Origin: an uncultured Pseudomonadota bacterium
GTDB lineage: Bacteria; Pseudomonadota; Alphaproteobacteria; Acetobacterales; Acetobacteraceae
Direction of reading: 5' to 3'
DNA: 64,000 nt
Assembly (NCBI GenBank): GCA_963736975.1
Contig: CAVTQY010000002.1
Span: 364,949-428,948 of the forward strand
Shown here: piece after piece, positions 9,668-36,463 of the stretch
Layout of the letters: each line of letters starts with the position of its first letter
Position numbering within the stretch: the stretch's first letter is position 1
The notes under the pieces: generated by a model
The model's input: only the letters and a program-made list of their open reading frames with translations
Told to the model about the DNA's origin: nothing
The model's database searches: none
Translations under genes and position numbers: made by a program

Positions 9668-9786
9668 CAACTCGCCGCGGCACGATGCATGGGGTTTATC
9701 GGAGGGAGGGGTGCGGGCCAATCCCCATTCGGGACATAGGCTATACCGCCCGGGCAGTGCTTTCCCTATTACCTTCGGAGGTTGCA

Positions 9787-10395
9787 ATGCCGGAACCCGA
9801 ACGCATCGATCGGCATCGCACGGCACTCATCGCGTACGACGTCTGTCGGCGTGCGCTGACGCCGTCGGATCCCGCTCGAAGATCTGCAATGCGCCCGCTG
9901 CTCGATGCGTGGGTGCGGATGATCGCGCTCGCACGGGCGGCTGGTGTGCCGGTGATCTACACGACGCCGGTCAGCCGCGCCGATGGCGCCGATGTCGTCA
10001 TGCTGCCGACCGATCTATCGGCGGAGACCGGTGTGCCGCCGCTGACGAACGCGATCGAGGGGACCGCCGAGGCCGGTTTCCCCGAGGAGATTGCGCCTCG
10101 GGTTGAGGATTACGTCTTTCTCAAGCGTCGGCCGAGTGCCTTCTATGGGACGGGCGTTGCCGAGCTACTGCAAATGCTGCGGCGCAACACCCTTATCATC
10201 GGCGGTGGCGCCACCAACCGTGGCGTCGAGACGAGTGTCCGCGAGGCTTTCAATCTCGACGTTGCGTGTGTCGTCGTGCGCGAGTGCTGCTGGGGCAGTG
10301 ACGCGGACGCTCATGCGTATAGTCTGGACAAGGCGATGAAGATGTACGCTCGCATCCGGCGGCTGGAGCAAGTCGCGGAGATGCTGGGGGAGTGA
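9787..10395 (+). CDS. Isochorismatase-family cysteine hydrolase
   Basis: ORF 9685..10395, ATG 9787 preceded by GGAGG. ...RTALIAYDVCRR..., VFLKRRPSAFYGTGVAELLQMLRRNTLIIGGGATNRGVETSVREAFNLDVACVVVRECC. Confidence 0.85.
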   Translation: MPEPERIDRHRTALIAYDVCRRALTPSDPARRSAMRPLLDAWVRMIALARAAGVPVIYTTPVSRADGADVVMLPTDLSAETGVPPLTNAIEGTAEAGFPEEIAPRVEDYVFLKRRPSAFYGTGVAELLQMLRRNTLIIGGGATNRGVETSVREAFNLDVACVVVRECCWGSDADAHAYSLDKAMKMYARIRRLEQVAEMLGE

Positions 10396-10566
10396 GATGG
10401 CTGCTGGCCGAGGGCGGCAGTGCGGCGACAAACAGCGGCGGCCCGCGCCCATCATGGGGCGGCATAGGGTTAAGCAGTGGCCCTGCTCCTGATCCGATCC
10501 TGATTAACGACGTCTCAGCACGCGTGTGCTTCCCCTGGGGCGGCATCCCGAAGCGGAACCGCGCCA

Positions 10567-10828
10567 ATGCCGACGTTGAGCACGTTCTATGGTATCGGTG
10601 ATTCAGATGTTCTGGCAGGAACATCCGCCGCCGCACTTCCACGCCTTGTACGCGGAGCACGAGGCATTGATTGACATTCAGACGCTTGACGTCATCGAGG
10701 GAAGCCTGCCCCGCCGTACGCTTACTCTTGTGCGTGAGTGGGCGCGCGTACATCGTGCTGAACTGATGGAGGACTGGAATCTATGCCGGCAGAGGCAGCC
10801 GCCCAAGACGATCGAGCCGCTTCGGTAA
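10567..10828 (+). pseudogene. DUF4160-family gene interrupted by a +1 frameshift near nt 10597
   Basis: ATG 10567 encodes MPTLSTFYGI. After one extra G (~10597) the ORF-track frame (10589..10828) continues VIQMFWQEHPPPHFHALYAEHEALIDIQT... Joined, the sequence matches the canonical DUF4160 N-terminus (MPT.S.FYGI.I.M...EH.PPHFHA.Y.E). Confidence 0.6.
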
Positions 10829-11115
10829 CACCAACCATACGTCCGACTGCTCCGTGGCGGGTGCAGGAGGTGAAGGCGCTACCAGACGACCGCCTGTTCG
10901 TGCGGTTCATCGATGGGCTCAGGGGCATTGTCGATCTTTCCGCGCTCATTGCGTCGCCGAACGCGGGGGTATTCGCGCGCCTGCAGGACCGGAGCTTGTT
11001 CGAGCAGGTTCGGGTAGAAATGGGGGCCGTCGTCTGGCCCGGCGACCTGGATCTTGCCCCCGACGCGATGCACGCCGCGATCAAGAAACACGGGGAGTGG
11101 AGGATTGCTCCCTAG
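10783..11115 (+). CDS. DUF2442-family protein
   Basis: 110 aa. ...WRVQEVKALPDDRLFVRFIDGLRGIVDLSALI...GAVVWPGDLDLAPDAMH is the DUF2442 pattern. GGAGGA lies 9 nt upstream of the ATG. The gene overlaps the DUF4160 3' end by 46 nt. Confidence 0.65.
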   Translation: MPAEAAAQDDRAASVTPTIRPTAPWRVQEVKALPDDRLFVRFIDGLRGIVDLSALIASPNAGVFARLQDRSLFEQVRVEMGAVVWPGDLDLAPDAMHAAIKKHGEWRIAP

Positions 11116-11147
11116 TTAGCCGAGGTTGCGGCGCGGCCCCGTCATCT

Positions 11148-11350
11148 GGCAGCGCCGCCACCTATAGCGGTGTCGAGACGAGCGTGTGCGAGGCGTGCAA
11201 TCTCGACATTGCGTCTGTCGCCGTGAGCGATTTATGTTGCAGAGGCCACACGAACTACACCTACGGCCCCGACGAGGCGATGAAGACGCACGCGCGCATC
11301 CGGCGCCTGGACCAGGCCGCGGCGTGCTGGGGGAATGAGGGTGCTGCTGA
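11148..11350 (+). pseudogene. Diverged duplicate of the 3' end of the isochorismatase-family gene
   Basis: Nucleotides align by eye with 10201-10410. The translation ...GVETSVCEACNLDIASVAVSDLCC...DEAMKTHARIRRLDQAA compares with GVETSVREAFNLDVACVVVRECCW...DKAMKMYARIRRLEQVA. There is no upstream coding part. Confidence 0.7.
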
Positions 11351-11635
11351 TTGGTACAACGACTCGAGCCGCCAAGGTCGACCCCAAACGGTTCAATGCG
11401 CGCCGTCGGTTTTCGACCGTCCCCACCGTGATACACCATCAGCTCCGCCCGCGGTGCCAACGCGGCCATATCCGACCAGGACCATCGACATCGAAACTGT
11501 TGGACATTTGGGGATATCGGCCGAAAAATGTCGGTGCGTGCGGCCGCCGCGCGGCAATCAGCGGCCGCGCTTGACGGGCGCCGCGAATGTCGGCCCTGCC
11601 CGGCCGGCTGCTTCGAGAACGGCGCAGGAGGCGAT

Positions 11636-13290
11636 ATGGATTATCCTTACGACCTCGGCCCTTATTCCCGGACGGTGACCACGGCCTCGGCGGACGCCCA
11701 GCGCTGGTTCGACCGCGGCCTCAACTGGTGCTTCGGTTACCACCATGAGGAGGCGATCGCCTGCTTCCAGAAGGCGCTTGAGGCCGACCCGAACTGCGCC
11801 ATGGCGCACTGGGGCATCGGCTACGCGGCCGGGCCGAACTACAACTTCCCCTGGGAACTGATGGACCCCGCGGGTAAGGCGGTGGCACTCGCGCGCGCCC
11901 ACTCTGCCGCCTGCGCAGCCCTCGCGCTGGCCGGAGGTGCCACCGCGCCGGAACGGGCGCTGATCGGGGCGTTGACCACCCGCTATCCACAGCGCGACCC
12001 CATCGAAGACCAGTCGCCCTGGAACGACGCCTTCGCCGATGCCATGCGCCACGCACACCAAGCGTATCCAGACGACCTCGACTTACGCGCCATATTTGTT
12101 GAAGCGATCCTCAATCGTACGCCCTGGCTCATGTGGGACCTGCGTACCGGCGAGCCCGCGCCCGGCGCCGGCACGCTGGAAGCGCGCGAGGTGCTCGAGT
12201 GCGCCTTCCGCGATCTGCCCGGGGCGATGGACCACCCCGGTCTTCTGCACCTGCATGTGCACCTGATGGAAATGTCACCGCATCCGGAGGTTGCGTTGGT
12301 AACGGGTGACCGACTGCGCGAGATGAGCCCGGACATGGGCCACCTGGTTCACATGCCCACGCACATCGACATTCAGTGCGGCTACTATCGCGACGCGATG
12401 CACTGGAATCATAAAGCGATCGTTGCGGACCGCAAGTTCTATGACCTCGCCGGGCCGATGAATTTCTATTCGGGTACCGGATACATAATTACCATTTCGC
12501 CGCTTACGGGGCTATGTTCCTCGGCCAGTACGCGCCGGCGATCGCGGCCGTTGACGAGCTGATCGCGACCATGCCGGAAGCGTTTCTGCGCATTCCTTCA
12601 CCGCCCATGGCGGATTTTTTCGAAGGATACGTTTCCATCAGGCAGCACGTGCTGGTGCGCTTCGGCAAATGGCGCGAGATCATCGCGCAGGAGTTGCCGG
12701 CCGATCGCGAGCTGTTTTGCAACACCGTGGCGATGATGCACTACGCCAAGGGCGTCGCCCACGCCGCGCTGGGGGAGGTGCAAGCAGCGGAGGCGGAACA
12801 GGCGCTGTTCAGGGACGCCGCGAAACGCGTCCCGAAGTCGCGGCAAATCCACAACGTGTCCTGCGTGCAGCTTCTGGCTGTGGCCGAGGAGATGCTGGCG
12901 GGCGAGATCGCGTATCGGCGAGGCGAGCACGATGCGGCGTTCGCGCGTCTCCGCGCTGCCGTTTCGCTGGAGGATGATCTGCCGTACGACGAGCCGTGGG
13001 GGTGGATGCAGCCGGTCCGCCACGCGCTGGGTGCGCTGCTGCTGGAGCAGGGCCGCCCGGCGGAAGCCGAGGTGGTGTATCGCGAGGATCTTGGGCTTGG
13101 GGGCGCGTTGCCTCGGGCGCAGATCCACCCCGACAATCTGTGGGCTCTGCGCGGGCTGCTCGATTGCCTCGAGCGGCGGGGCGAGACGGCGGAGGCCGCA
13201 CTTATTCGCCAGCGGGTGAAGTTCGCGGCGGCGCGTGCAGATTTGCCGGTATGGGTGTCCTGTTTCTGTGCCGGCGGCATGGCGGCCTGA
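11636..13290 (+). pseudogene. TPR-like helical-repeat protein gene split by a -1 frameshift at ~12472-12475
   Basis: ORFs 11528..12562 (ATG 11636, GGAGG upstream) and 12514..13290 are two halves of one protein. The frame changes inside TCGGGTAC. Reading ...PMNFYS then, in the second frame, YRIHNYHFAAYGAMFLGQYAPAIAAVDE restores a continuous sequence. Confidence 0.65.
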
Positions 13291-13305
13291 GTTCGAGCCG
13301 GATTT

Positions 13306-13644
13306 TCAGATCGTAATGAAGCTCTCGAGCTTGGCGCGAACCTGCCGGGCCACTTCCGGGCTCACCGAACTACCAGCATAACGGATCGGCCTTGCCATTG
13401 TTCGATGCTGCGCACATGGCTGGTCAGAATTTCTCCCACGACCGGCAATCCGGGCGGCAGGACGACGCTGGTCGGAAATGGCCGTATGCGGGACGTAATC
13501 GGACACACCACCGAAAGCCCTGTATTCGCGCTGAACGCCGCGTCGGAGATGACCAGCGCTGGCCGTCGTCCGGCTTGCTCGCGTCCCTTCGTGGGGTCGA
13601 AATCGGTCCAGATCAGGTCCCCCGCCCGCTGGCATATAGCTCAT
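13306..13644 (-). pseudogene. mazF: MazF/PemK-type toxin gene whose core is out of frame (two opposite single-base indels)
   Basis: ATG 13644 overlaps the mazE stop (ATGA). Frame A encodes MSYMPAGG and the C-terminus ARPIRYAGSSVSPEVARQVRAKLESFITI. The canonical core DLIWTDFDPTKGREQAGRRPALVISDAAFSANTGLSVVCPITSRIRPFPTSVVLPPGLPVVGEILTSHVRSIEQW is readable only in another frame, between the C5 run at 13619-13623 and ~13392-13395. Confidence 0.7.
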
Positions 13645-13898
13645 TCGGGAACAATCTCGCGGCCAATATCCGGTCCCCAGTCGTAGGCTCCGGCATATTC
13701 GGCTCGCCAATCTTCGGGCGACTTACCGCGAAACAGCTCCGCGAGCGATATTCGCCTCTCGCTCGGGCGAATGACGACTGCCCCATCCCGCGCCTCGATA
13801 TCGACCCGTTCGCCATCGCGAAGCCTGACTGCATCGGCGATCTCCGCCGGCAGGCGCACCGCCAGGTTATTGCCCCATCTGCCGACCGTAACCTGCAT
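13641..13898 (-). CDS. mazE: AbrB/SpoVT-fold MazE-type antitoxin
   Basis: ORF 13641..13982, start at M29 (13898, GGAG upstream). MQVTVGRWGNNLAVRLPAEIADAVRLRDGERVDIEARDGAVVIRP. Confidence 0.75.
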   Translation of the reverse strand: MQVTVGRWGNNLAVRLPAEIADAVRLRDGERVDIEARDGAVVIRPSERRISLAELFRGKSPEDWRAEYAGAYDWGPDIGREIVPE

Positions 13899-13976
13899 CG
13901 AGCGCTCCAATGGATGGTCTGAGAATATCTGTGGCGCGGACGGCAACAGGCAAGGCCTACCCACCGGCACCCGCTT

Positions 13977-14191
13977 CCTCAAAACCCCCGCACCTGCTCA
14001 ATCGTCCGCGCCTTCAGCTCTGGCGGCTCCTTCCACGGAAACACCGTTACCTCCGCCCGCGGCGCCAATGCCGCCACATCGGTCGATGCCTGCAACGGAT
14101 GCGCTGGCGTATCGTCCGGCATTACCAGCACCGGCGTCTGGCAACCCCGCACGAACTCCCGCGACACGCCGCGGGGATTGATTGCACACAC
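13977..14191 (-). pseudogene. Diverged duplicate of the 3' end of the alpha/beta-hydrolase gene at 18456..19217
   Basis: ORF 13979..14191 translation matches 51 of 62 hand-aligned residues of the C-terminus of the intact hydrolase (VSREF.R.C.TP.LVMPDDTPAHPLQAS.DVAALAPRAEVT..PW..PPELKA.TIEQVR.F). Nucleotides 13977-14172 align with 18488-18683. Confidence 0.8.
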
Positions 14192-14276
14192 GAGCCGAGC
14201 GCCCGAAGCGCCACAGGATTATCTCGCAGGCATTGCGATCTGGTGTAGGATGCGCCGATCGGGGGGATAGAACTGC

Positions 14277-17200
14277 ATGGTTCAGTCCACGCTGCATCTC
14301 GAAGTTGCAGAGTTCCGCGATGCCGATCATTGGCGCTTTGTGCTGAAGGAGGCCGGCGGGGCGTTCCTGGCCGACCACGTCGCCGCGCTCGATCGGGCCG
14401 ATGCCCACTATGCCGCGCTAGTCGATCTGCCGGGCTATCTGCGCATGCATAGCGCACCGGATACCCGTGCGGCTGATGAGCAGCGGCTACTTGTTGAGGT
14501 AGGTAGTTGGATCGGCAAGCAAGTGTTGGGCCGGAGCCTTGCGGAGAAGCTGCTGTCGCGGGTGCCGCCGTCGGTGGTGGTGCGCGTGCTGGTCCCGCCG
14601 ACGGCAGAGCGGCTGCTCGCGTTGCCGCTCGAGATCGCACGGCTGGACGGCGGCGAGCCCCTGTCGGTGCAGGGCGTCAGCTTCGTGTTCGAGACGACCG
14701 GCACGGCGCCGCCACGAGCGGAGCCAGTCGGCGAGCGGCTGCGCATCCTGGCACTATTCAGCCTGCCGCCGGTCGGCAGCCCGCTGAATCTCCGCCGCGA
14801 GCGGCAGATGCTGCGTAATCTGGTACGCCGCTTGGCCGGCGCGGCCGGTCTTGGGGTGGAGTTGCACGTCCTGCAATACGGCGTGACGCGGAAGAGCCTG
14901 CAGGAGGTGCTGGAGCAGGGCGAGGGCTGGGACGTCATCCATTTCTCCGGCCATGGCCAGCCGGGCGCGCTGCTGCTGGAGCGCTCCGATGGCAAGCCGG
15001 ACGAGGTCTCCTCGATCGATCTCGCAAAGCTGCTCCGACAGGCGGGCGGACGGGTGAAACTGGTGACCTTGTCGGCCTGCCTGTCGGCAGCGGCCAGCGT
15101 CGCGCAGACGCTGTCCTGGCTTGGCTTCTCGGAGGGAGAGGCGGCGAAGCGCGACGCCTCGCCGGCTGTAACCACGGAAAAGCAGGACACCAAGGCGGCG
15201 CCGACGGTCGCGCGGGCGCTGACCGAAACGCTCGATTGCGCGGTACTGGCGATGCGCTACGCGGTCGAGGACGAGTTCGCGATGAACCTGGCGCGGGAAC
15301 TCTACGACCGGCTGTTCCGCCAGAAGCAGCCATTGCCGCAGGCGACAAGGCTGGCGCTTGCCAGTGTCGCTGGGGGCGAACGAGGAATCCCCGCCGTGGG
15401 TGCGCTCTCCGCCGCGGCGCCGGCGCTGTTCGGTCCACGTTCTGCGGACCTGATGCTCGTCCCGCCCAAGGGCACGGGGATCGACGCGGATACGTCGCTC
15501 GCTTTCGTGCCGAAGCTGCCGGAGCACTTTGTCGGCCGGGTGTCGGCGATGACGCGCGCGAGCGCGGCGCTCGCCACCGAGAGCAGCCGGAGCGGCGTTC
15601 TGTTCCACGGCATGGCGGGCGCCGGAAAGACCAGCTGTGCGGTCGAGCTCGTTTATCACCACGCCGCCGTTGGCCGGTTCCAGCGCTTTGTCTGGTTCTC
15701 GGCGCCGGAGCAGGGCAAGGACATCGCCCTGGCGCTGCGTGACTTCACACTGGCGCTGGAACGCCAGATCCCCGACCTGGCCATGCTGCAGGTCATCGAC
15801 CGCACCGACGCGTTGCGCGACTGGCTGCCACGGCTGGCTGAGGTGCTGGAGAACAACGCGCTCCTGATCGTGCTGGACAACCTGGAGAGCCTGCTGACCG
15901 AGGCGGGGGTATGGCGGGACGAGCGCTGGGGGTTGCTCGTCGAGGCCCTGCTGACCGCGGGCGGGCTGTCGCGCACGGTGCTGACCAGCCGCACCCGCCC
16001 TGCCGCGCTGCCGGAGTCGACCGAGGTAATCGCGGTGCACGCACTGCCGCGCGACGAGGCGCTGCTGTTGGTGCGCGAGCTGCGCAACCTGCGCCGGTTG
16101 CTCGACGGTGCGAAAGAGACCGGCGTGAGCCAGGAGGCGGGCCGGCAACTGGTGCGCCGGGTGCTGCGCCTGGTGCAAGGCCATCCCAAGCTGATCGAGC
16201 TGGCCGAGGCGCTGGCCGCGGCGCCGGCAAAACTGGCCGCGCAGCTCGACGAAGCCGACAAGGCGCAGACCGCGGGTGCCGGCGAACTCGACGCCTTCTT
16301 CGCCCAAGGCGAGACGCGACTCGGTCCGGCGGAATTTGTGGAGAGCCTGCATGGCTGGACCCGCGGCATCGCCGGCGCACTACCGGAGGCTGCACGCACC
16401 GGCTTCCATTTCCTTTGCGCCCTGGAGGAGGGTGACCGGCAGGGTTGGATCATCGCGGCCAACTGGTCGGACGTGTGGCAGCGCCTTGGCCGCCCGGCGC
16501 CGGCGCCGGATTTTCAAGCGGTGCTCGCCCCGCTCGTCGCGGCAGGGCTGGTCGACAAACAGGCGACCGCCGACCAGGCGGACGAGTTCGAAGTGCTGAT
16601 CCATCCTGGCATCGCCGAGGCCGGCCGCGCCGAGGCTGGCGCGGACCTGCAGGCCGCCGTCGATCACGAGCTCGCCGCGACGTGGAACACGCTGTTTCGG
16701 AACGCTTGGAAGGCGGAGGGCCGTGAGGCCTGGGCCGGCCCAATGATGGTGCGCGCCGGGCTGCACGGCTTCCCGTACTTCGCCCGCCTTGGGCACTGGG
16801 AGTTGGCTGCGGGAATGATGGACAGGGCCGTGCATCTGGACACATCGCCCGGTACGATCGCCGCAGTGCTGCCGCTGCTACAAAAGGTGGTCTCTGCCGC
16901 GACGGGCACCGAGCGGCAGAATGCGGAAAACCGCGGCATCCTCGCCAAGGTTCTCGAACTGGCCGGCCGGACCGGCGAGGCGGAAGGCCTGCTCCGCGAC
17001 CTCATCGCGCAAACTGCCGAGCGGGGTGAGTTTGGGGCCGCCTCTGTAAATTCAGGCACTTTGGCCAAACTGCTCCGGCGCACCGGTCGGGCGCGCGAAG
17101 CCTTACAAGTAATCGAGCGGCAGGCCGAATACACCAAGCAGGCAGGCTACGGGGCATGGACACAGTTAGCCGACGAGGTTCGGCGTCTGCAGATCCGCGT

Positions 17201-18071
17201 CGAGCTTGGCGAACATAGCGATGTGCTCGCGCGCGTGCTGGAGCTGCGCGGGCAGATGCACCAGTTGCCCGATCCGCCCGAGGCGAACGACCGGTCGGTG
17301 ACCACGTGGAATGTGCGTGAGACAATGTTGGATGTCGGGCGCAACGCTGCGGTGGAATCAGGTGAATGGCAGCCAGCCCTTGATCTCAACGCTGAGATTT
17401 TGCAGAGCAGCGTCAACCGCGGCGCCGGGGCTTTTGAACTTGCGCGTGGCCGGTTCAACGATTACGGGCCGCTACTGCGGCTGCAACGTTATGGTGAGGC
17501 CCGCAGCCTTTTGCAGCACTGCCGGGACGTGTTCGAGCAGGAGAACGCCGTGGCGGAGCTCGGGGCGGTGTTCTCTGGCCTTGCGGATCTAGAGGACGAG
17601 CTCGGCCGTAAAGAAGCGGCGGGGCGTTTCGAGCAAACGGCAATTCGCTACGAATATGCTGCGGGAAACCCCAGCAGTATCGCTATCAGCCACTTCAATC
17701 TCGCCAAATACCTGACCAAGGCGGATGGCGATTGGCGCGGCGCGCTCGGACATCGGCTGGCCGCGGCAATGATCAGATGCATCACCGGATCGGCGGGATT
17801 GGAGCAGGCGATCACGGCACTCGCCAGGGATCTTCGCAACGCCGGCGGCCAGGCGAGCGCGGCTCTGCCCGGCGATTTGGCCGCGCTGTATGCGGACGTG
17901 CAGCAAGTCGAAGGCGTGCGCTTCCACGAGTTGATGCAGCGACTGCAGCCGGACGAGGCGGCACTGGAACAGCTCCTGCAAGACATTATCGCCGGTGCGA
18001 AGAAACGGGCCGACGCAAATGACGGTGCATCGCCTGATCGCGGGCCACAGCAGGGGGAGGGGTCACAATGA
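14277..18071 (+). CDS. CHAT (caspase-like) protease - STAND P-loop NTPase - TPR-like repeat protein, 1264 aa
   Basis: The CHAT dyad context is WDVIHFSGHG (His226, nt 14952-14954) and KLVTLSACLS (Cys268, nt 15078-15080). Walker A is VLFHGMAGAGKTS (nt 15609-15632) and Walker B-like is NALLIVLDNLESLL (Asp534). The C-terminal ~450 aa are helical repeats. It is a single uninterrupted ORF with coding-like G/C third positions. Confidence 0.85.
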   Translation: MVQSTLHLEVAEFRDADHWRFVLKEAGGAFLADHVAALDRADAHYAALVDLPGYLRMHSAPDTRAADEQRLLVEVGSWIGKQVLGRSLAEKLLSRVPPSVVVRVLVPPTAERLLALPLEIARLDGGEPLSVQGVSFVFETTGTAPPRAEPVGERLRILALFSLPPVGSPLNLRRERQMLRNLVRRLAGAAGLGVELHVLQYGVTRKSLQEVLEQGEGWDVIHFSGHGQPGALLLERSDGKPDEVSSIDLAKLLRQAGGRVKLVTLSACLSAAASVAQTLSWLGFSEGEAAKRDASPAVTTEKQDTKAAPTVARALTETLDCAVLAMRYAVEDEFAMNLARELYDRLFRQKQPLPQATRLALASVAGGERGIPAVGALSAAAPALFGPRSADLMLVPPKGTGIDADTSLAFVPKLPEHFVGRVSAMTRASAALATESSRSGVLFHGMAGAGKTSCAVELVYHHAAVGRFQRFVWFSAPEQGKDIALALRDFTLALERQIPDLAMLQVIDRTDALRDWLPRLAEVLENNALLIVLDNLESLLTEAGVWRDERWGLLVEALLTAGGLSRTVLTSRTRPAALPESTEVIAVHALPRDEALLLVRELRNLRRLLDGAKETGVSQEAGRQLVRRVLRLVQGHPKLIELAEALAAAPAKLAAQLDEADKAQTAGAGELDAFFAQGETRLGPAEFVESLHGWTRGIAGALPEAARTGFHFLCALEEGDRQGWIIAANWSDVWQRLGRPAPAPDFQAVLAPLVAAGLVDKQATADQADEFEVLIHPGIAEAGRAEAGADLQAAVDHELAATWNTLFRNAWKAEGREAWAGPMMVRAGLHGFPYFARLGHWELAAGMMDRAVHLDTSPGTIAAVLPLLQKVVSAATGTERQNAENRGILAKVLELAGRTGEAEGLLRDLIAQTAERGEFGAASVNSGTLAKLLRRTGRAREALQVIERQAEYTKQAGYGAWTQLADEVRRLQIRVELGEHSDVLARVLELRGQMHQLPDPPEANDRSVTTWNVRETMLDVGRNAAVESGEWQPALDLNAEILQSSVNRGAGAFELARGRFNDYGPLLRLQRYGEARSLLQHCRDVFEQENAVAELGAVFSGLADLEDELGRKEAAGRFEQTAIRYEYAAGNPSSIAISHFNLAKYLTKADGDWRGALGHRLAAAMIRCITGSAGLEQAITALARDLRNAGGQASAALPGDLAALYADVQQVEGVRFHELMQRLQPDEAALEQLLQDIIAGAKKRADANDGASPDRGPQQGEGSQ

Positions 18072-18328
18072 ACCAACCCAACAGCAGCGAGGAGGTCGCA
18101 CGCAGGTCGGCGGCGCGGCTTGTCGATATCGATCCGGGATTACCGGATCAGGTTGAACAGGCGCTCGCGGAAGATCCGCTGTCCCGGCCAGCAGACCGCA
18201 TACTCGACCCGATTTCGCTGGGCGCGCTCATCGCCAGCATCGCCTCGCTGGGCTGGACCATATATCACGACATCAAGAAGGACCGCGGCACGGCCGGGCT
18301 CGATCGGGCGGGAAGACTCGGCGCCTGA
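18068..18328 (+). CDS. Small ORF translationally coupled to the CHAT-STAND gene (hypothetical, one hydrophobic helix)
   Basis: The ATG overlaps the upstream stop (ATGA at 18068-18071). The 86-aa product has an acidic N-half and one uncharged 19-residue stretch, PISLGALIASIASLGWTIY. Third-position G/C is high. A further open, coding-like stretch in another frame runs to 18450. Confidence 0.45.
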   Translation: MNQPNSSEEVARRSAARLVDIDPGLPDQVEQALAEDPLSRPADRILDPISLGALIASIASLGWTIYHDIKKDRGTAGLDRAGRLGA

Positions 18329-18455
18329 CCGAGCAGCTACAGGAATCGGATCTGGAGACCGGACCAGTTCCAACTGATCTTTCGCCAGAGCGGCACGCCC
18401 GGATGATCAGCGTCATTGCTGCGGAGATCGTTGGTTCCGACCCGGTCTAAAGCGC

Positions 18456-19217
18456 TTACCGGGCAACGGCTCTCACCGGCAGCTGCACCCTCAGAAACTC
18501 CCGCACCTGCTCGATCGTCTTGGCCTTCAACTCCGGCGGCTTGGTCCACGGATAGGCCGTCACCTCTGCGCGCGGCGCCAACGCCGCCACGTCCATCGAT
18601 GCCTGCAATGGATGCGCCGGGGTATCATCCGGCATCACCAGCATCGGTGTCTTGCAAGACCGCGCAAACTCCCGCGATACGCTGTAAACAAAATCGGGTC
18701 GTGCGCGGTAAAGATTGTGCAGATAGGCCTCGATCGTTACCATCGCAACATCTGGCCGTCGCGCCAGCAGTTCCGGCGCCCACACATCCCGGCCGGACCG
18801 GTACATCACGTCGGGATCGTCATCCCGATGCCCCACCGTCTGGCACAGCACGCCGGCCACCACGCGATCCGGCGCTCGCTCCATCAGCTTCAGCGCAAAG
18901 CAACCGCCGATGCAGTACCCCATGAAGAAGAACTGCCGGATGCCCAGGTGGTCCATCAGCCCGAGCTGATCATCGGTGAACGCGCCCCACGGGTCGTCAA
19001 CAGCGACAGGCCCCGTGGACTCGCCGCCGTTCGCGTTGCGCTGATCCATCGTGATGCAGCGGAAGTCGTCCTTGAAGACTTCCATCGCATTGAACACGGC
19101 GGTCGGCCAATGGCTGACGCCGGAGTTCAGGCCGCCGCCGGGAGTGACAAGCAGCGGGAAGCCGCTGCCGGTCTCCTCATAGCGGATGCGGACGTCGCCC
19201 TTTTCGTAGAATGGCAT
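18456..19217 (-). CDS. Alpha/beta-fold hydrolase
   Basis: 253 aa. MPFYEKGDVRIRYEETGSGFPLLVTPGGGLNS..., nucleophile-elbow-like FFMGYCIGGCFALK, and C-terminus ...PMLVMPDDTPAHP. Confidence 0.85.
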   Translation of the reverse strand: MPFYEKGDVRIRYEETGSGFPLLVTPGGGLNSGVSHWPTAVFNAMEVFKDDFRCITMDQRNANGGESTGPVAVDDPWGAFTDDQLGLMDHLGIRQFFFMGYCIGGCFALKLMERAPDRVVAGVLCQTVGHRDDDPDVMYRSGRDVWAPELLARRPDVAMVTIEAYLHNLYRARPDFVYSVSREFARSCKTPMLVMPDDTPAHPLQASMDVAALAPRAEVTAYPWTKPPELKAKTIEQVREFLRVQLPVRAVAR

Positions 19218-19304
19218 GGTGTATTTCCCAGGCTGCGGGTTGTGCGTTCTTTGTCATGGCTGGGCTCGGCCCGGCCGTCCACGTTTTCCTTCATGCGGGC
19301 AAGA

Positions 19305-19342
19305 AAGACGTGGATGGCCGGCACGAGGCCGGCCATGACGGT
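19305..19342. repeat. REP-type module left of the GIY-YIG gene
   Basis: AAGACGTGGATGGCCGGCACGAGGCCGGCCATGACGGT. An inverted partner CCGGCCGTCCACGT lies at 19271-19284, and the same motif recurs in reverse (TCCACGTCTT) at 19383-19392. Confidence 0.75.
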
Positions 19343-19422
19343 AAGTGCCGGCGTCCGCCTTCGCCGGGTTGAGGGCCAGCAGTCCACGTCTTCTTCACCA
19401 GTCCCGGCCATTGGGTGTTCGC

Positions 19423-19659
19423 ATGGGCGGATGGGTTTACATCATGACGAACCAGCGCAGTGGAACGCTGTATGTCGGGGTTACGAATGACCTGGTTCGT
19501 CGGGTTTGGGAGCATCGGCAGGGAATCGGAAGCAATTTTGTTCGTCGATATGCCCTGAACAGCTTGGTCTACTTCGAACATCATGAAGACGTAGGCACAG
19601 CAATTCAGCGAGAGACCAGTCTGAAGCGGTGGCCTCGTGCTTGGAAAGTCGCCTCTTGA
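19423..19659 (+). CDS. Small GIY-YIG nuclease-family protein (COG2827 type); conserved C-terminal tail is out of frame to 19709
   Basis: ORF 19345..19659, start at M27. MGGWVYIMTNQRSGTLYVGVTNDLVRRVWEHRQG...LVYFEHHEDVGTAIQRETSLKRWPRAWK. The expected tail QNPEWRDLYPSLLG* is encoded in another frame (19656-19709), implying an indel near 19650-19656. Confidence 0.7.
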   Translation: MGGWVYIMTNQRSGTLYVGVTNDLVRRVWEHRQGIGSNFVRRYALNSLVYFEHHEDVGTAIQRETSLKRWPRAWKVAS

Positions 19660-19740
19660 CTGCTCAGAACCCGGAGTGGCGGGACTTGTACCCGTCGCTG
19701 CTCGGTTGAAGTTCGATTTTGGTGTCATGTGTGCGGTTAA

Positions 19741-19821
19741 AAGACGTGGATGGCCGGGCCAAACCCGGCCATCCACGATAGGGGGCCGGCCACGACGATG
19801 AGGGCGGCCGGCCATGACGGT
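19741..19821. repeat. REP-type module right of the GIY-YIG gene
   Basis: AAGACGTGGATGGCCGGG-ccaaa-CCCGGCCATCCAC forms a 13-bp perfect stem (19746-19776) and is followed by GCGGCCGGCCATGACGGT (19804-19821). It is in the same orientation and has the same end motifs as 19305-19342. Confidence 0.75.
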
Positions 19822-19832
19822 GTACATCGTCC

Positions 19833-20708
19833 TTAATTCGCGGGGGCCAGCTTGTCCTGCGTCTTGGTTTCGAAATCGCCGGCCTCGTGGCGCTCGTGCA
19901 ACTGACTCGATGGGTCGCCGCTGGTGCGATTGACCATCCGCCCGCGCCGCACCGCCGGCCGTGCATGGATCGCATCGGCCCAGCGAATAACGTTCTTATA
20001 CTCCTGCACAGACAGGAACTCGGCGGCCCCGTACTGCCCGAACTTCACCAGCCCGGCGTACCAAGGCCATGCAGCCATATCGGCAATCGTATACACGTCA
20101 CCTGCAAGATACTCATTTTCCGCCAGCCGCTTATCGAGCACATCGAGCAGCCGCTTCGTCTCCATCGCAAACCGGTCGATGGCATATTCGATCTTCGTCG
20201 GCGCATAGGCGTAGAAATGACCAAATCCGCCGCCGAGATACGGCGCGCTGCCCATTTGCCAGAACAGCCATGACAGGCATTCGGCGCGTACAGCGACCTC
20301 GGTCGGCAGAAACGCCCCGAACTTCTCCGCCAGGTACAACAGGATCGCGCCGGACTCGAACAGCCGGATCGGCTTCGGACCGCTGCGGTCCACCAGCGCC
20401 GGGATTTTGGAATTGGGGCTGATCGCGACGAAGCCGCTGCCGAACTGATCGCCCTCGCCGATGCGGATCAGCCAAGCATCATACTCCGCGCCCGCATGCC
20501 CAAGCGCCAACAGCTCCTCCAGCATCACCGTGACCTTCACGCCGTTCGGTGTGCCCTGCGAGTAGAGCTGGAGAGGATGGCGCCCGACCGGCAGTTCTTT
20601 CTCGTGCGTGGGCCCGGAGATCGGGCGGTTGATGTTCGCGAACTGGCCGCCGCTTGGCTTGTTCCATGTCCAAACCTTCGGCGGCATATATTCGGATGAG
20701 TCCGACAT
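19833..20708 (-). CDS. yghU: YghU-type (Nu-class) glutathione S-transferase / GSH-dependent disulfide reductase
   Basis: 291 aa. YMPPKVWTWNKPSGGQFANINRPISGPTHEKELPVGRHPLQLYSQGTPNGVKVTVMLEELL... is near-diagnostic of YghU. Confidence 0.85.
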   Translation of the reverse strand: MSDSSEYMPPKVWTWNKPSGGQFANINRPISGPTHEKELPVGRHPLQLYSQGTPNGVKVTVMLEELLALGHAGAEYDAWLIRIGEGDQFGSGFVAISPNSKIPALVDRSGPKPIRLFESGAILLYLAEKFGAFLPTEVAVRAECLSWLFWQMGSAPYLGGGFGHFYAYAPTKIEYAIDRFAMETKRLLDVLDKRLAENEYLAGDVYTIADMAAWPWYAGLVKFGQYGAAEFLSVQEYKNVIRWADAIHARPAVRRGRMVNRTSGDPSSQLHERHEAGDFETKTQDKLAPAN

Positions 20709-20726
20709 CTTCCAAACTCCAACAGT

Positions 20727-22097
20727 TTACGACCTACAGCCAAACTGCCCCACGAGATCCGCCAGATGCCCGATCTCCTCGAGCCGAAGCCCCTCGGGTG
20801 GCGCCGGCGTGCGCCCGCCGCGCGCCACCCGTCGTGGCAGGCACGCCGTATCGAACCCCAGCTTAGCCGCTTCCTTCAGCCGCGCCTCGGCCTGCGCCAC
20901 CTGCCGGATCTCGCCAGAAAGCCCCACCTCACCGAAATACACCATCCCGGCGCTGGTCGGCCGATCGCCGGCCGCCGAGGCAATCGCGGCGGCCACGGCA
21001 AGGTCGGCCGCCGGCTCATTCACCCGCAGCCCGCCGGCCACGTTCAGATACACATCCGCCGCACCGAGCCGCAGTCCGCAACGCGTCTCCAGCACTGCCA
21101 GCAGCATGGATAACCGCCCGCCATCCCAACCGATCACCTGCCGGCGCGGCGCTCCGCCCGGATTGGGCGCCAGCAGCGCCTGCACCTCCACCAGCACGGG
21201 CCGCGTGCCTTCGATGCCCGCAAACACCGCGCTGCCGGCGATGTTGCCGCGCCGCTCGGCCAGGAACAGCGCCGAGGGGTTCGTCACCTCGGCAAGCCCG
21301 CGCTCGGTCATCTCGAACACGCCGATCTCGTCAGTGGCGCCGAAGCGGTTCTTCACCGCACGCAAGATGCGGAACTGGTGTCCCCGCTCGCCTTCGAAAT
21401 ACAGCACCGCATCGACCATGTGCTCCAGCACGCGCGGTCCGGCGATCGCCCCGTCCTTGGTCACGTGCCCGACCAGCACCAGCGCGAAGCCGCGCGACTT
21501 CGCCAGCCGGATCAGCTCGAACGCGGCGGCTCGCACCTGCGCCACCGTGCCGGGCGCGCTCTCGATCTGATCGAGCCACATCGTCTGGATCGAATCGATC
21601 ACCACCAGCGCCGGCCGGCTCGCCTCGAGGCCGGCGGCGATGTCGCGCAGGTTGATCGCGGCGGCGACGTCGAGCGGCGCCTCCGTCACGCCGAGCCGGC
21701 GGGCGCGCAGCCGGACCTGCTCGATCGACTCCTCGCCGGAGACGTAGAGAACGGGCTGTCCACTGGCGGCGAGCGCGGCGGCCGCCTGCAGCAGCAGGGT
21801 CGATTTGCCGATCCCCGGATCGCCGCCGACCAACACCGCCGAGGCGGGCACGAGGCCGCCACCCAGCACGCGGTCCAGTTCGGCGATCCCGGTGCCGGCG
21901 CGCGGCGGCGGCTCAGCCGTTCCGGCCAGGCGAACGATATCCAACCCGCGAACCGGCCCGCCCCTGGCCGCAGGCCCGGGCCGCGGCGCGTCCTCGACGA
22001 TTGTATTCCAGGCGCCGCAGGCTTCACAGCGTCCGGCCCATTTTGGGCCGACGGCACCGCAGCCCTGACAAACGAAACGAACGGCGGGCTTGGCCAA
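20727..22097 (-). CDS. radA: DNA repair protein RadA/Sms
   Basis: Zn-ribbon FVCQGCGAVGPKWAGRCEACGAWNT, Walker A GGDPGIGKSTLLLQ, KNRFG motif and a Lon-like C-terminus. Confidence 0.95.
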   Translation of the reverse strand: MAKPAVRFVCQGCGAVGPKWAGRCEACGAWNTIVEDAPRPGPAARGGPVRGLDIVRLAGTAEPPPRAGTGIAELDRVLGGGLVPASAVLVGGDPGIGKSTLLLQAAAALAASGQPVLYVSGEESIEQVRLRARRLGVTEAPLDVAAAINLRDIAAGLEASRPALVVIDSIQTMWLDQIESAPGTVAQVRAAAFELIRLAKSRGFALVLVGHVTKDGAIAGPRVLEHMVDAVLYFEGERGHQFRILRAVKNRFGATDEIGVFEMTERGLAEVTNPSALFLAERRGNIAGSAVFAGIEGTRPVLVEVQALLAPNPGGAPRRQVIGWDGGRLSMLLAVLETRCGLRLGAADVYLNVAGGLRVNEPAADLAVAAAIASAAGDRPTSAGMVYFGEVGLSGEIRQVAQAEARLKEAAKLGFDTACLPRRVARGGRTPAPPEGLRLEEIGHLADLVGQFGCRS

Positions 22098-22101
22098 TGC
22101 A

Positions 22102-22626: not shown

Positions 22627-22659
22627 AGGTTAACCCAGCCTGAGTGACGCGAGCCAGCC

Positions 22660-36387: not shown

Positions 36388-36463
36388 TGGCTCCCGGAGT
36401 AGGACTCGAACCTACGACCCAGCGGTTAACAGCCGCTTGCTCTACCGACTGAGCTATCCGGGA
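36388..36463 (-). tRNA. tRNA-Asn (anticodon GTT)
   Basis: The reverse complement folds as TCCCGGA-TA-GCTC-AGTCGGTA-GAGC-A-AGCGG-CTGTTAA-CCGCT-GGGTC-GTAGG-TTCGAGT-CCTAC-TCCGGGA-G-CCA. 76 nt. Confidence 0.9.

What the first reader, a model, noticed from the sequence alone, without database searches (positions are those of the whole stretch)
13977..18683. CHAT-STAND cassette is bracketed by diverged direct copies of the 3' end of the alpha/beta-hydrolase gene (integrase-less insertion footprint)
Seen in the sequence: nt 13977-14172 align by eye, in the same orientation, with nt 18488-18683, the last ~65 codons of the intact hydrolase gene 18456..19217(-). Translated, 51 of 62 hand-aligned residues are identical (VSREFVRGCQTPVLVMPDDTPAHPLQASTDVAALAPRAEVTVFPWKEPPELKARTIEQVRGF versus VSREFARSCKTPMLVMPDDTPAHPLQASMDVAALAPRAEVTAYPWTKPPELKAKTIEQVREF). 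Everything between the copies (about 4.3 kb) is the CHAT-STAND gene and its partner. Established knowledge: elements that integrate into the 3' end of a gene or tRNA carry a replacement 3' end and displace the original, leaving this kind of direct repeat. Inference: the cassette arrived as a unit and the two copies have different origins, because they are too diverged for a recent duplication. No integrase or recombinase is present, so the mobilising function is lost, acts in trans, or the exchange occurred by homologous recombination.
Basis: partly seen in the sequence, partly recalled or inferred. Interest (0 to 1): 0.6.

Follow-up and report, generated by a model that had tools for sequence, protein, structure and literature searches.

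The report
Displaced hydrolase gene remnant beside cassette
A truncated second copy of a hydrolase gene's tail does sit on the far side of a two-gene CHAT-STAND (probable immune) cassette, but it is a leftover from recombination between two diverged versions of a variable chromosomal locus, not the signature of an element that carries its own replacement gene end.

Summary
The repeat is real. Window 13949-14170 and 18462-18683 align in the same orientation (81% nt, E=4e-55; 51/63 aa). The copies diverged as functional genes (dS 0.59, dN/dS 0.19). Fragment A is closer to another species' hydrolase (L013, 88.7% aa) than to the neighbouring intact gene (82%).

The att-type reading (an element carrying a replacement 3' end) is not supported:
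- The CHAT+small cassette (~14228-18455) ends 5 nt beyond the intact gene's stop codon.
- Homologous cassettes in other contexts carry no hydrolase end.
- One relative (L081) has the same cassette at the same spot with no displaced fragment.
- Against L081, dS is 0.16 for the cassette but 0.46 for the hydrolase, including its 3' end.

The locus is a mosaic. An inner block (isochorismatase 3' relic, TPR gene, mazEF, hydrolase fragment) lies between full-length isochorismatase+DUF4160/DUF2442 and CHAT/small+hydrolase. In L084 the cassette abuts a 5'-truncated higB.

Best explanation (about 0.45): DNA carrying a xenologous hydrolase plus the cassette entered by homology-anchored recombination and displaced the resident hydrolase, as in Rhs/T6SS "C-terminal displacement".

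This is an ordinary kind of event, so interest is modest. The cassette's sharp, recombinase-less boundaries are the more interesting residue.

The parts
9685..10395 (+). Intact isochorismatase-family gene (outer left gene of the nested structure)
   Evidence: Pfam PF00857 E=6e-30. It is 80-86% nt identical to relatives, omega 0.06-0.13.
10560..11115 (+). DUF4160/DUF2442 gene pair (DUF4160 is frameshifted near its start; DUF2442 is 10783-11115)
   Evidence: Pfam PF13711 E=8e-21 and PF10387 E=3e-12. Window 10499-11123 is 85-87.5% identical to sequence lying just downstream of the hydrolase in L012, L008, L001, L005 and L006. A weaker copy lies directly upstream of the cassette in L081.
11127..11349 (+). 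Old 3' relic of an isochorismatase gene. It forms a second 'bracket' with 10183-10406 around the DUF pair.
   Evidence: the repeat finder D1/D8, spacing 943-944. About 58% aa and 72.5% nt identity to the intact gene. Against relatives, dN is about 0.25 and omega 0.5-0.68, compared with 0.06-0.13 for the intact gene.
11420..11485 (-). Possible third, very short hydrolase-like relic (marginal)
   Evidence: blastn 81% over 43 nt to fragment A, E=3e-6. 10/14 aa are identical ('DMAALAPRAELMVY'), with protein-level E only 0.28.
11528..13290 (+). TPR-repeat gene, frameshifted around 12476-12514. It is the conserved far-side neighbour of the hydrolase in L013 and L018, and of the CHAT cassette in L084.
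   Evidence: Weak Pfam TPR hits. Single ORF in L013 and L084. 85% nt / 88-89% aa to L084, 81% nt to L013.
13362..13644 (-). mazF/pemK toxin gene. Its start overlaps the mazE stop, and it has one frameshift in a G-run.
   Evidence: Pfam PF02452 E=8e-18; reading of the translations.
13641..13898 (-). mazE (AbrB/SpoVT-type) antitoxin gene, about 50 nt downstream of fragment A in the same orientation
   Evidence: Pfam PF04014 E=2.6e-12.
13949..14170 (-). Hydrolase fragment A: a 5'-truncated remnant corresponding to codons ~179-253, with a 1-nt indel in the tail
   Evidence: 88.7% aa to the L013 hydrolase and 82.3% to hydB, but only 45-48% to the tandem paralogue family.
14171..14227 (.). 57-nt junction filler of unknown origin between fragment A and the cassette
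   Evidence: No match to any fetched locus, to the L012 or L081 spacers, or elsewhere in the window.
14228..18455 (+). CHAT-STAND cassette. It comprises about 50 nt of conserved upstream sequence, the CHAT-NB-ARC-TPR gene 14277-18071, and the small partner gene 18068-18450 (frameshift near 18307).
   Evidence: Pfam CHAT E=5e-10 and NB-ARC E=2e-6. The left boundary is shared with L081 and L084. The right boundary is set by homology to L083 ending at 18444 and by the dS step against L081. No PADLOC hit was confident.
18456..19217 (-). Intact alpha/beta-hydrolase gene (copy B is its last ~75 codons, 18456-18683)
   Evidence: Pfam PF00561 E=5e-11. 71-89% aa to 80 relatives. The gene plus 19218-19340 and GST are collinear with L001, L005, L008 and L012.
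19341..19831 (+). Small insertion carrying a GIY-YIG ORF, between the hydrolase promoter region and GST
   Evidence: Pfam PF01541 E=8e-16. Absent in L001, L005, L008 and L012, where the spacer is about 20 nt.
19833..20708 (-). Glutathione S-transferase gene, the conserved upstream partner of the hydrolase in about 30 relatives
   Evidence: Pfam GST_N/GST_C; synteny.

Best explanation
Fragment A is the displaced 3' remnant of a second hydrolase orthologue from a different lineage. That orthologue once sat, full-length, next to mazEF and the TPR gene, as in relatives with GST>hydrolase><TPR.

DNA from a differently organised relative, carrying a hydrolase gene with the CHAT+small cassette immediately 3' of it (the arrangement seen in L081), recombined into the locus. 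One side paired by homology in the conserved GST/hydrolase region. The other end, about 50-110 nt upstream of the CHAT gene, was joined illegitimately inside the resident hydrolase at codon 178/179. A single crossover of a circularised fragment would give the same layout.

The result is intact hydrolase - cassette - 5'-truncated old hydrolase tail - old downstream genes. This is the 'C-terminal displacement' footprint known from Rhs/CDI/T6SS loci. No integrase is needed, and the repeat is not an att site.

Shown: the repeat, its xenologous nature, the cassette's boundaries, occupied and unoccupied versions of the locus in relatives, an older bracket of the same design around the isochorismatase gene, and a truncated higB at the cassette's left edge in L084.

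Inferred: the direction of transfer (which copy is resident) and the recombination mechanism.
For: 1. Layout: full gene, cargo, then a 5'-truncated copy in the same orientation, followed by genes (mazEF, TPR) that are the hydrolase's downstream neighbours in relatives L013 and L018.
2. The copies diverged under purifying selection to dS 0.59 with no excess dN on the A branch, so A was functional until recently and came from another lineage. A is 88.7% aa identical to the hydrolase of L013, the TPR-adjacent type.
3. The donor-type arrangement exists: in L081, cassette and complete hydrolase are contiguous, with 5 nt between the stop codons.
4. Unoccupied versions exist: L012 and L008 (DUF2442><hydrolase) and L013 (hydrolase><TPR).
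5. Parallel case: in L084 the cassette's identical left boundary abuts a 5'-truncated higB, whereas L018 has intact higBA next to the hydrolase.
6. A second bracket of the same design (isochorismatase - DUF4160/2442 - isochorismatase 3' relic) has a different, older age. This indicates recurrent events at both conserved borders of the variable region.
7. No recombinase was found in or near the locus.
8. Precedent: orphan 3' fragments from homology-facilitated illegitimate recombination or single crossover (PMC5361080; PMC3240628).
Against: 1. Against L081, the hydrolase, including its 3' end, is three times more diverged at synonymous sites than the cassette (0.46 vs 0.16). There is therefore no direct evidence that hydrolase DNA travelled with the cassette; the true donor is unsampled.
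2. The cassette's left boundary is the same within +-5 nt in the window, L081 and L084. Random donor ends under HFIR would not predict this.
3. The 57-nt filler has no identifiable source.
4. A DUF2442 gene abuts the cassette in L081, but in the window it lies on the far side of the inner block. This is equally well explained if the inner block is the incoming DNA.
5. Which copy is resident could not be determined. No strain-level relative was found.
Confidence: 0.45

Rival explanations
1. The inner 3.1-kb block (11127-14227: isochorismatase relic, TPR, mazEF, hydrolase fragment A) is the incoming DNA. The resident locus was isochorismatase - DUF4160/2442 - cassette - hydrolase - GST, and a piece of another lineage's version of the same locus was inserted exactly at the DUF2442/cassette boundary.
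For: In L081, DUF2442 sequence lies directly upstream of the cassette. In L012 and L008 the DUF pair directly faces the hydrolase. Removing the inner block from the window recreates that arrangement. Only two illegitimate joints are needed. HydB plus its upstream region plus GST are collinear with relatives. The history test leans weakly towards hydB being unitary.
Against: The two end fragments have very different decay: the isochorismatase relic has omega 0.5-0.7 and dN 0.25, while the hydrolase fragment shows no excess dN. They were therefore not truncated in one event, unless one was already a relic in the donor. TPR next to the cassette recurs in L084 without any DUF pair. TPR next to the hydrolase is a native arrangement in L013 and L018. 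Random capture of a fragment from exactly the homologous locus is improbable unless homology played a role, and homology-driven exchange would replace the region rather than nest within it.
Confidence: 0.2
2. Fragment A is what remains of a second, tandem hydrolase gene that stood downstream of hydB. The cassette was inserted between the two copies, or a deletion next to its left end followed, which removed the second copy's 5' two-thirds.
For: Tandem hydrolase arrays are common in relatives (L020, L046, L059, L070, L079). In L084, a deletion adjoining the cassette's left edge would by itself explain the higB remnant. The cassette's boundaries are precise and its dS is decoupled from the hydrolase, as expected if it inserts on its own just past the hydrolase stop codon.
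Against: The tandem second copies in relatives are only about 52% identical to hydB and 45-48% to A, whereas A is orthologue-grade at 82-89%. No relative has two orthologue-grade copies in tandem. A dS of 0.59 with both copies under selection would require long coexistence of redundant genes, or again a xenologous acquisition.
Confidence: 0.15
3. One reading: a site-specific element that targets the hydrolase 3' end carries its own copy of that end (attP-like). It reconstitutes the gene and displaces the native end. The recombinase has been lost or acts in trans.
For: The geometry fits: both outer flanks look native, with GST and the promoter region on the 5' side and mazEF/TPR beyond fragment A. 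The cassette has sharp, conserved ends and occupies the same spot in two lineages. An 11-nt identical stretch (AACTCCCGCGA) lies at the inner edge of the repeat.
Against: The cassette ends before the hydrolase stop codon. Five or more cassette homologues in other contexts lack any hydrolase sequence. L081 has no displaced fragment. The hydrolase 3' end is the least conserved part of the window-L081 block (82.9% nt, dS 0.45, against 92% and 0.16 for the cassette). There is no chimerism signal. There is no recombinase, and there are no repeats shared by the two cassette ends.
Confidence: 0.05
4. Assembly artefact: two co-occurring strains' versions of the locus were merged into one contig.
For: The nested structure equals one haplotype's interior placed inside another's. 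The window carries several frameshifts: DUF4160, TPR, small, hydA' tail, and mazF (the only one seen in a homopolymer run). Related ENA long-read assemblies are full of split genes.
Against: The copies share no exact repeat longer than about 14 nt, so an assembler would not be misled. The junctions show no similarity. The isochorismatase relic is truly decayed at the protein level, which a functional gene of a co-occurring strain would not be. L084 independently shows TPR - TA - truncated gene - cassette.
Confidence: 0.05

Closest known systems
C-terminal displacement / orphan 3' fragments in Rhs, CDI and T6SS effector-immunity loci (PMC5361080 and the Rhs work it cites)
   Same: An incoming module shares a homologous 'anchor' with the resident gene and brings new downstream cargo. 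The old 3' end is shifted downstream as a 5'-truncated orphan in the same orientation, together with its old neighbours. No dedicated recombinase is involved, and repeated events build arrays of relics. Here two brackets of different age are seen.
   Different: The anchor gene here is an ordinary alpha/beta-hydrolase (and an isochorismatase), not a polymorphic toxin with a variable tip. The new and old 3' ends are orthologous rather than functionally distinct. The cargo is a CHAT-STAND gene pair, not an immunity gene. Co-transfer of the anchor was not demonstrated.
Homology-facilitated illegitimate recombination and single-crossover integration of incoming DNA (PMC3240628; de Vries & Wackernagel 2002 and Prudhomme et al. 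2002, as cited in PMC5361080)
   Same: One homologous end plus one illegitimate joint explains a full gene, foreign cargo and a truncated resident remnant without an integrase. A circularised fragment integrating by one crossover gives the same direct repeat.
   Different: No microhomology could be assigned because 57 nt at the joint are of unknown origin. The copies are only 82% identical, which is a poor substrate. The cassette's left end is the same in three genomes, which HFIR does not predict. Nothing was tested experimentally.
Integrase-mediated genomic islands inserted in the 3' end of tRNA or protein genes (attL/attR direct repeats)
   Same: Direct repeat of a gene's 3' end bracketing foreign cargo, with the gene kept intact.
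   Different: There is no integrase. The cassette does not overlap the gene. The 3' end does not travel with the cassette. The repeat is 220 nt at 82% identity, with no conserved core beyond 11 nt.
Antiviral STAND (Avs) / bacterial NLR-related defence proteins
   Same: The cassette's large protein has an N-terminal CHAT protease-like effector domain, a central NB-ARC/NACHT-type NTPase and a C-terminal TPR-like region. Its C-terminal part evolves fast (dN 0.19 in codons 1001-1100). Homologues sit beside Mrr, IS21 and resolvases.
   Different: No PADLOC model matches confidently. The conserved small partner (about 125 aa, no Pfam family) is not a described Avs component. No defence activity is known. 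In this window the partner gene is frameshifted.

Membership tests
Integrase-type island in a gene 3' end (att duplication) | A tyrosine or serine recombinase encoded in or beside the element | tested here: not met
   The cassette holds only the CHAT-STAND gene and the small gene. Pfam scans of ORFs across about 7.5-36 kb found no integrase, resolvase or transposase.
Integrase-type island in a gene 3' end (att duplication) | The element carries its own copy of the target gene's 3' end, which travels with it | tested here: not met
   Cassette homologues in L082, L083, L085, L086/87 and L093 have no hydrolase sequence. Against L081, the hydrolase 3' end has dS 0.45 while the cassette has 0.16.
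Integrase-type island in a gene 3' end (att duplication) | Insertion point inside the gene, with an identical core at both junctions | tested here: not met
   The cassette ends 5 nt beyond the stop codon. The only identity at the repeat's inner edge is 11 nt. No repeat is shared by the two cassette ends.
Integrase-type island in a gene 3' end (att duplication) | Every occupied site shows the displaced fragment | tested here: not met
   L081 is occupied at the same position and has no second hydrolase fragment.
C-terminal displacement / HFIR-type footprint | Full gene, new cargo, then a 5'-truncated old 3' end in the same orientation, followed by the old downstream genes | tested here: met
   hydB - small/CHAT - fragment A - mazEF - TPR. 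The TPR gene is the hydrolase's downstream neighbour in L013 and L018.
C-terminal displacement / HFIR-type footprint | The old and new copies are xenologues that diverged as functional genes, not a recent in-situ duplication | tested here: met
   dS 0.585, omega 0.19, even branch split. A is closer to the L013 hydrolase (88.7% aa) than to hydB.
C-terminal displacement / HFIR-type footprint | A donor-type arrangement exists in which the cargo directly follows the anchor gene | tested here: met
   In L081, cassette and complete hydrolase are contiguous over 5.0 kb.
C-terminal displacement / HFIR-type footprint | Anchor DNA came in together with the cargo (the intact gene is wholly or partly donor-derived) | tested here: inconclusive
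   There is no identity step at 18683. Spearman correlation of the 5'-part identity profile with the B 3' core is 0.53 and with A 0.38, against 0.61 for matched and 0.33 for mismatched controls, with overlapping ranges. L081 is not the donor lineage for the hydrolase.
C-terminal displacement / HFIR-type footprint | Illegitimate joint with short microhomology | tested here: inconclusive
   57 nt of unknown origin separate fragment A from the cassette.
Avs / bacterial NLR-like STAND defence protein | Tripartite architecture: N-terminal effector, STAND NTPase, C-terminal repeat sensor | tested here: met
   CHAT E=5e-10 (residues 88-364) and NB-ARC E=1.7e-6 (427-612) pass Pfam cut-offs. TPR_12 is below its cut-off (1066-1123).
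Avs / bacterial NLR-like STAND defence protein | Match to a curated defence-system model | tested here: not met
   PADLOC gives only SAVED_CHAT at E=2e-4, with no stretch passing on its own. The small partner has no hit.
Avs / bacterial NLR-like STAND defence protein | Protection against phage | not testable with these tools
   This needs an experiment.
mazEF type II toxin-antitoxin | Adjacent AbrB-type antitoxin and PemK/MazF toxin genes with overlapping stop and start | tested here: met
   PF04014 E=2.6e-12 and PF02452 E=8e-18. An ATGA overlap lies at 13641-13644. The toxin reading frame has one shift in a G-run.

The most novel reading that the evidence does not exclude
The CHAT+small pair is a discrete, recombinase-less mobile unit with fixed ends (about 50 nt upstream of the CHAT start codon, and the partner gene's stop codon). 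An unknown trans-acting or sequence-directed mechanism places it at a defined spot a few nucleotides past the stop codon of the hydrolase gene. Its arrival deletes or truncates whatever lay on its left side (the hydrolase here, higB in L084). This reading rests on identical boundaries in three genomes with three different left neighbours, and on a synonymous divergence one third that of the abutting hydrolase.
Probability: 0.12. Interest if true: 0.6.

Novelty: new member of a known kind. Interest (0 to 1): 0.3.

Why it matters
The finding shows how a probable immune gene pair enters a chromosome without any mobility gene of its own: by recombination at the conserved borders of a variable region. 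It also shows that such events leave dateable scars, namely gene-tail relics of different ages.

In practical terms, a 3'-end direct repeat around cargo should not be read as an att site without checking whether the repeat actually travels with the cargo.

The locus itself is a compact natural record of successive exchanges. It includes two brackets (a possible third, very short hydrolase-like relic at 11420-11485 is marginal), variable toxin-antitoxin modules (none, higBA or mazEF) and a CHAT-STAND cassette. This record could be used to study the turnover of defence cargo in soil Acetobacteraceae. The cassette's sharp boundaries and its decoupled divergence are the one feature that could point to something mechanistically new.

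Tried and rejected
- **Exact-protein look-ups** of the hydrolase and the CHAT protein, to find the same strain elsewhere: nothing on record.
- **Metagenome scan with the CHAT protein:** only 5 loci and no new context.
- **Which copy is native:** identity to 78 relatives, with nearest neighbours and a 5'/3' history-correlation test, has too little signal in 189 nt. The 3' end is more variable in every relative.
- **Closer parent of fragment A:** the best hit is 86%. The short hits on long contigs that were examined (L094, L095) turned out to be frameshift-split full genes in long-read assemblies, not relics.
- **Source of the 57-nt filler:** none found.
- **Repeats at the ends** of the inner block and of the cassette (candidate TIRs, target duplications or recombination sites): nothing beyond chance.
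- **Fixed-offset codon comparison** of the isochorismatase pair failed because of indels. It was redone with a protein-guided alignment.
- **GC3-based gene map** to judge frameshift frequency across the window: too crude and abandoned.
- **Considered and rejected:**
  - Fragment A as a member of the ~52% tandem paralogue family (45-48% identity).
  - In-situ duplication followed by decay (omega 0.19, no excess dN on the A branch).
  - An internal repeat of the hydrolase family (no second match inside any hydrolase gene).

Full report
**1. The observation**

The repeat is real. An alignment of 13950-14200 with 18461-18711 shows continuous similarity in the same orientation.
- blastn of the fragment region against the whole window returns 13949-14169 vs 18462-18682, 81.1% over 222 nt, E=4e-55.
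- tblastn of the intact hydrolase returns 82% over 62 residues, E=3e-29, and nothing else convincing in 64 kb.
- In that core, 155/189 nt and 51/63 residues are identical.
- Similarity continues through the C-terminal tail up to about the stop codon of the intact gene, with a 1-nt indel in copy A.
- It ends abruptly at 14170/18683, between codons 178 and 179 of the 253-codon gene.

Copy A is therefore a 5'-truncated remnant on the minus strand.

Between the copies lie 57 nt of unassigned sequence, the CHAT-NB-ARC-TPR gene (14277-18071; Pfam) and a small partner gene. The partner really ends at 18450, 5 nt from the hydrolase stop codon. In this window it carries a frameshift relative to its 123-127-aa homologues.

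**2. Nature of the two copies**

The 34 differences fall 7/8/19 on codon positions. dS is 0.585, dN 0.111 and dN/dS 0.19. When polarised with 15 outgroups, the changes split evenly between the A branch (4/4/8) and the B branch (3/4/11).

Copy A is no closer to copy B (82.0% nt) than to orthologues of other species (L010 86.2%, L024 84.7%, L005 and L013 84.1%). At protein level A is 88.7% identical to the L013 hydrolase, against 82.3% to hydB. It is only 45-48% identical to the ~52% tandem paralogues that some relatives carry.

So the copies are xenologues that evolved as working genes in different lineages, and A was truncated recently.

**3. The neighbourhood**

From left to right the window carries the following:

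| Coordinates | Strand | Feature |
|---|---|---|
| 9685-10395 | + | isochorismatase gene |
| ~10560-11115 | + | DUF4160/DUF2442 pair |
| 11127-11349 | + | isochorismatase 3' relic |
| 11528-13290 | + | TPR gene (frameshifted) |
| 13362-13644 | - | mazF |
| 13641-13898 | - | mazE |
| 13949-14170 | - | hydrolase fragment A |
| 14171-14227 | . | 57-nt filler |
| ~14228-18455 | + | CHAT+small cassette |
| 18456-19217 | - | intact hydrolase |
| 19218-19340 | . | conserved promoter-side stretch |
| 19341-19831 | + | insertion with a GIY-YIG ORF |
| 19833-20708 | - | GST gene |

RadA and PolA follow GST.

The structure is nested. Two full-length convergent genes (isochorismatase, hydrolase) lie outside, each followed by accessory cargo. 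5'-truncated copies of the same two genes lie inside, flanking TPR+mazEF.

The isochorismatase pair (10183-10406 vs 11127-11349, spacing 943-944) is much older than the hydrolase pair. The relic is about 58% aa identical to the intact gene. Against relatives it shows dN about 0.25 and omega 0.5-0.68, where the intact gene shows 0.06-0.13.

No integrase, resolvase or transposase was found among the ORFs scanned across about 7.5-36 kb. The only tRNAs are at 26.8 and 36.4 kb.

**4. Relatives**

Eighty hydrolase loci from species-representative genomes (mostly Acetobacteraceae MAGs, 71-89% aa) were fetched. The GST>hydrolase pair is conserved in about 30 of them. What follows the hydrolase varies:
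- the DUF2442/DUF4160 pair (L012 directly; L008, L001, L005 and L006 after 1-2 kb);
- the isochorismatase gene, convergent (L016, L027, L029, L030);
- the TPR gene, convergent (L013 after 40 nt; L018 after higBA and one more gene).

None of the 80 loci has a CHAT gene or a second hydrolase fragment. The interval downstream of the hydrolase is thus a variable region bordered by conserved genes. Unoccupied versions of the site exist.

**5. The cassette elsewhere**

The CHAT-STAND protein has 757 homologues at E<=1e-10 among the 8000 candidates scored.

- **L081.** The closest homologue (94% aa over the part called as one gene) lies on a 196-kb contig. Window 14230-19228 aligns with L081 over 5012 nt at 90.7%, covering the cassette and the whole hydrolase. 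L081 has no displaced fragment. Its left neighbour is a DUF2442-like stretch, and further left a gene homologous to one in L018's variable region. Its hydrolase belongs to the GST-linked clade. It is therefore another version of the same locus.
- **Identity along the block is uneven.** It is 92% for CHAT (94-98% in the middle), 92% for the small gene, 82.9% for the hydrolase 3' part and 87.9% for the 5' part.
- **Synonymous divergence steps at the stop codons.** dS is 0.160+-0.014 for CHAT and 0.167+-0.055 for the small gene (0.154 in its last 45 codons). It is 0.464+-0.065 for the hydrolase (windows of 0.42, 0.62, 0.45, 0.30 and 0.52). The cassette was shared far more recently than the hydrolases diverged, and the hydrolase 3' end is not part of that unit.
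- **L084.** This cassette (76% aa) is preceded by an orthologue of the window's TPR gene (85% nt), a higA gene and only the last ~30 codons of higB. L018 has higB and higA between TPR and the hydrolase.
- **Left boundary.** About 50 nt upstream of the start codon, it is the same within a few bases in the window, L081 and L084, with three different left neighbours.
- **Other homologues.** L082, L083, L085, L086/87 and L093 sit in unrelated contexts. L082 lies beside IS21, Mrr and a resolvase, L083 beside a resolvase, and L085 and L086/87 beside ABC-transporter genes. None carries hydrolase sequence.

**6.

An element that integrates into a gene's 3' end and brings a replacement end makes four predictions:
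- the end travels with the element;
- the insertion point is inside the gene;
- every occupied site has a displaced fragment;
- the intact gene is chimeric at the repeat's edge.

The first three were tested and not met. The fourth gave no signal. The att-type reading is therefore not supported, although the geometry that prompted it is accurate.

**7. Best explanation**

The layout is intact gene, new cargo, 5'-truncated old tail in the same orientation, then the old downstream genes. This is the footprint called C-terminal displacement in Rhs, CDI and T6SS loci. There, an incoming module anchored by a homologous region pushes the old 3' end downstream. Homology-facilitated illegitimate recombination, or a single crossover of a circularised fragment, has been proposed as the mechanism (PMC5361080; PMC3240628).

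In this window, DNA from a relative with the L081-type arrangement (hydrolase with the cassette right behind it) would have paired in the GST/hydrolase region. It would then have been joined illegitimately inside the resident hydrolase, which belonged to a TPR-type locus like L013's.

Three things fit recurrent events of this kind at both borders of the variable region: the older isochorismatase bracket, the truncated higB in L084, and the variable toxin-antitoxin content.

I put this at about 0.45, for four reasons:
- the direction of transfer is not established;
- no hydrolase DNA can be shown to have come with the cassette;
- the constant left boundary of the cassette is not what random donor ends predict;
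- the 57-nt filler is unexplained.

**8. Rivals**

(a) The inner 3.1-kb block is the incoming piece (0.2). The DUF2442-cassette adjacency in L081 supports it. The different ages of its two end fragments and the TPR-cassette adjacency in L084 count against it.

(b) Fragment A is a remnant of a tandem second hydrolase, truncated by cassette insertion or an adjoining deletion (0.15). Tandem arrays exist, but only with distant paralogues.

(c) The att-type model (0.05).

(d) An assembly chimera (0.05). There is no long exact repeat, the isochorismatase relic is truly decayed, and L084 gives independent support, all of which argue against it. Still, the window has several frameshifts (only the mazF one lies in a homopolymer run), and related long-read assemblies are error-prone. 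Frameshifts here should therefore not be read as pseudogenisation without read support.

**9. Novelty and interest**

This is a new instance of a known kind of recombination scar, in an unusual setting: housekeeping-type border genes and a CHAT-STAND cargo. The large protein has the Avs/bacterial-NLR architecture but matches no PADLOC model. It has a conserved small partner with no Pfam family match.

The feature that could be new is the cassette's behaviour. It has fixed ends, no recombinase, the same position a few bases past a stop codon in two lineages, and divergence decoupled from its neighbour. I give a dedicated, unknown placement mechanism a probability of about 0.12. Overall interest is 0.3.

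Noticed in passing
window 10183-10406 vs 11127-11349: A second bracket of the same design: the DUF4160/DUF2442 pair is flanked by the intact isochorismatase 3' end and a decayed 3' relic of an isochorismatase gene (omega 0.5-0.7 against relatives). It is much older than the hydrolase fragment.
   Followed up: yes
window 11420-11485 (-): A short stretch resembles the hydrolase 3' region ('DMAALAPRAELMVY'; 81% over 43 nt to fragment A, E=3e-6, but protein-level E 0.28). It may be a third relic, lying between the isochorismatase relic and the TPR gene.
   Followed up: partly
window 19341-19831: A 490-nt insertion lies between the hydrolase promoter region and GST, relative to L001, L005, L008 and L012. 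It carries a 78-aa GIY-YIG ORF. The translated flanks contain the repeated 'AGHDG / PAMT'-like motifs typical of alphaproteobacterial repeat elements.
   Followed up: partly
window ~10600, ~12476-12514, ~13620, ~13981, ~18307: There are single-base frameshifts in DUF4160, the TPR gene, mazF, the fragment A tail and the small partner gene. Only the mazF one was seen to lie in a G-run. They could be real decay of this locus or long-read assembly errors, and this cannot be decided without reads.
   Followed up: partly
L084 2333-2476: The CHAT cassette of L084 abuts a 5'-truncated higB (only '...HSIRVNQQWRICFVWTAGGPDYVEIVDYH' remains) next to an intact higA. L018 has higB+higA at the equivalent place without any cassette.
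   Followed up: yes
L082 5802-19597; L083 4451-5041: More distant CHAT+partner cassettes (64-78% aa) lie beside IS21 (IstA/IstB), a faint phage-integrase hit, an Mrr restriction enzyme and serine resolvases. These are mobile or defence-island contexts, unlike the window's.
   Followed up: partly
window 17277-17576 (CHAT codons 1001-1100) vs L081: The C-terminal repeat region of the CHAT-STAND protein evolves fast (dN 0.19 with dS 0.28; omega 0.54 over codons 751-1264). The central NTPase region is nearly invariant (dN 0.004-0.036). This would be expected for a sensor domain under diversifying pressure.
   Followed up: partly
window 33686-36072, beside tRNA-Asn at 36388-36463: An MmeI-type restriction-modification gene appears split into a methyltransferase-domain ORF and a target-recognition-domain ORF. 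The 26.8-36.4 kb stretch between tRNA-Arg and tRNA-Asn has lower G+C (61-64%) and holds FkbM methyltransferase and beta-helix genes.
   Followed up: no
window 20708-25476 vs L001-L035: RadA and PolA follow GST in the window, but in none of the about 30 relatives that share the GST-hydrolase pair. No synteny outside 9.7-20.7 kb was detected with any fetched locus.
   Followed up: no
L020 10796-11536; L046; L059 (four copies); L070; L079: Several relatives carry tandem arrays of hydrolase paralogues about 52% identical to the query, separated by only tens of bases.
   Followed up: no
L094 11445-16573: In this relative, the region downstream of the GST-hydrolase pair holds DUF2442 followed by a cluster of IS elements (DDE_3, DDE_Tnp_1, IS110). 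This is further evidence that the interval is a hot spot for insertions.
   Followed up: no
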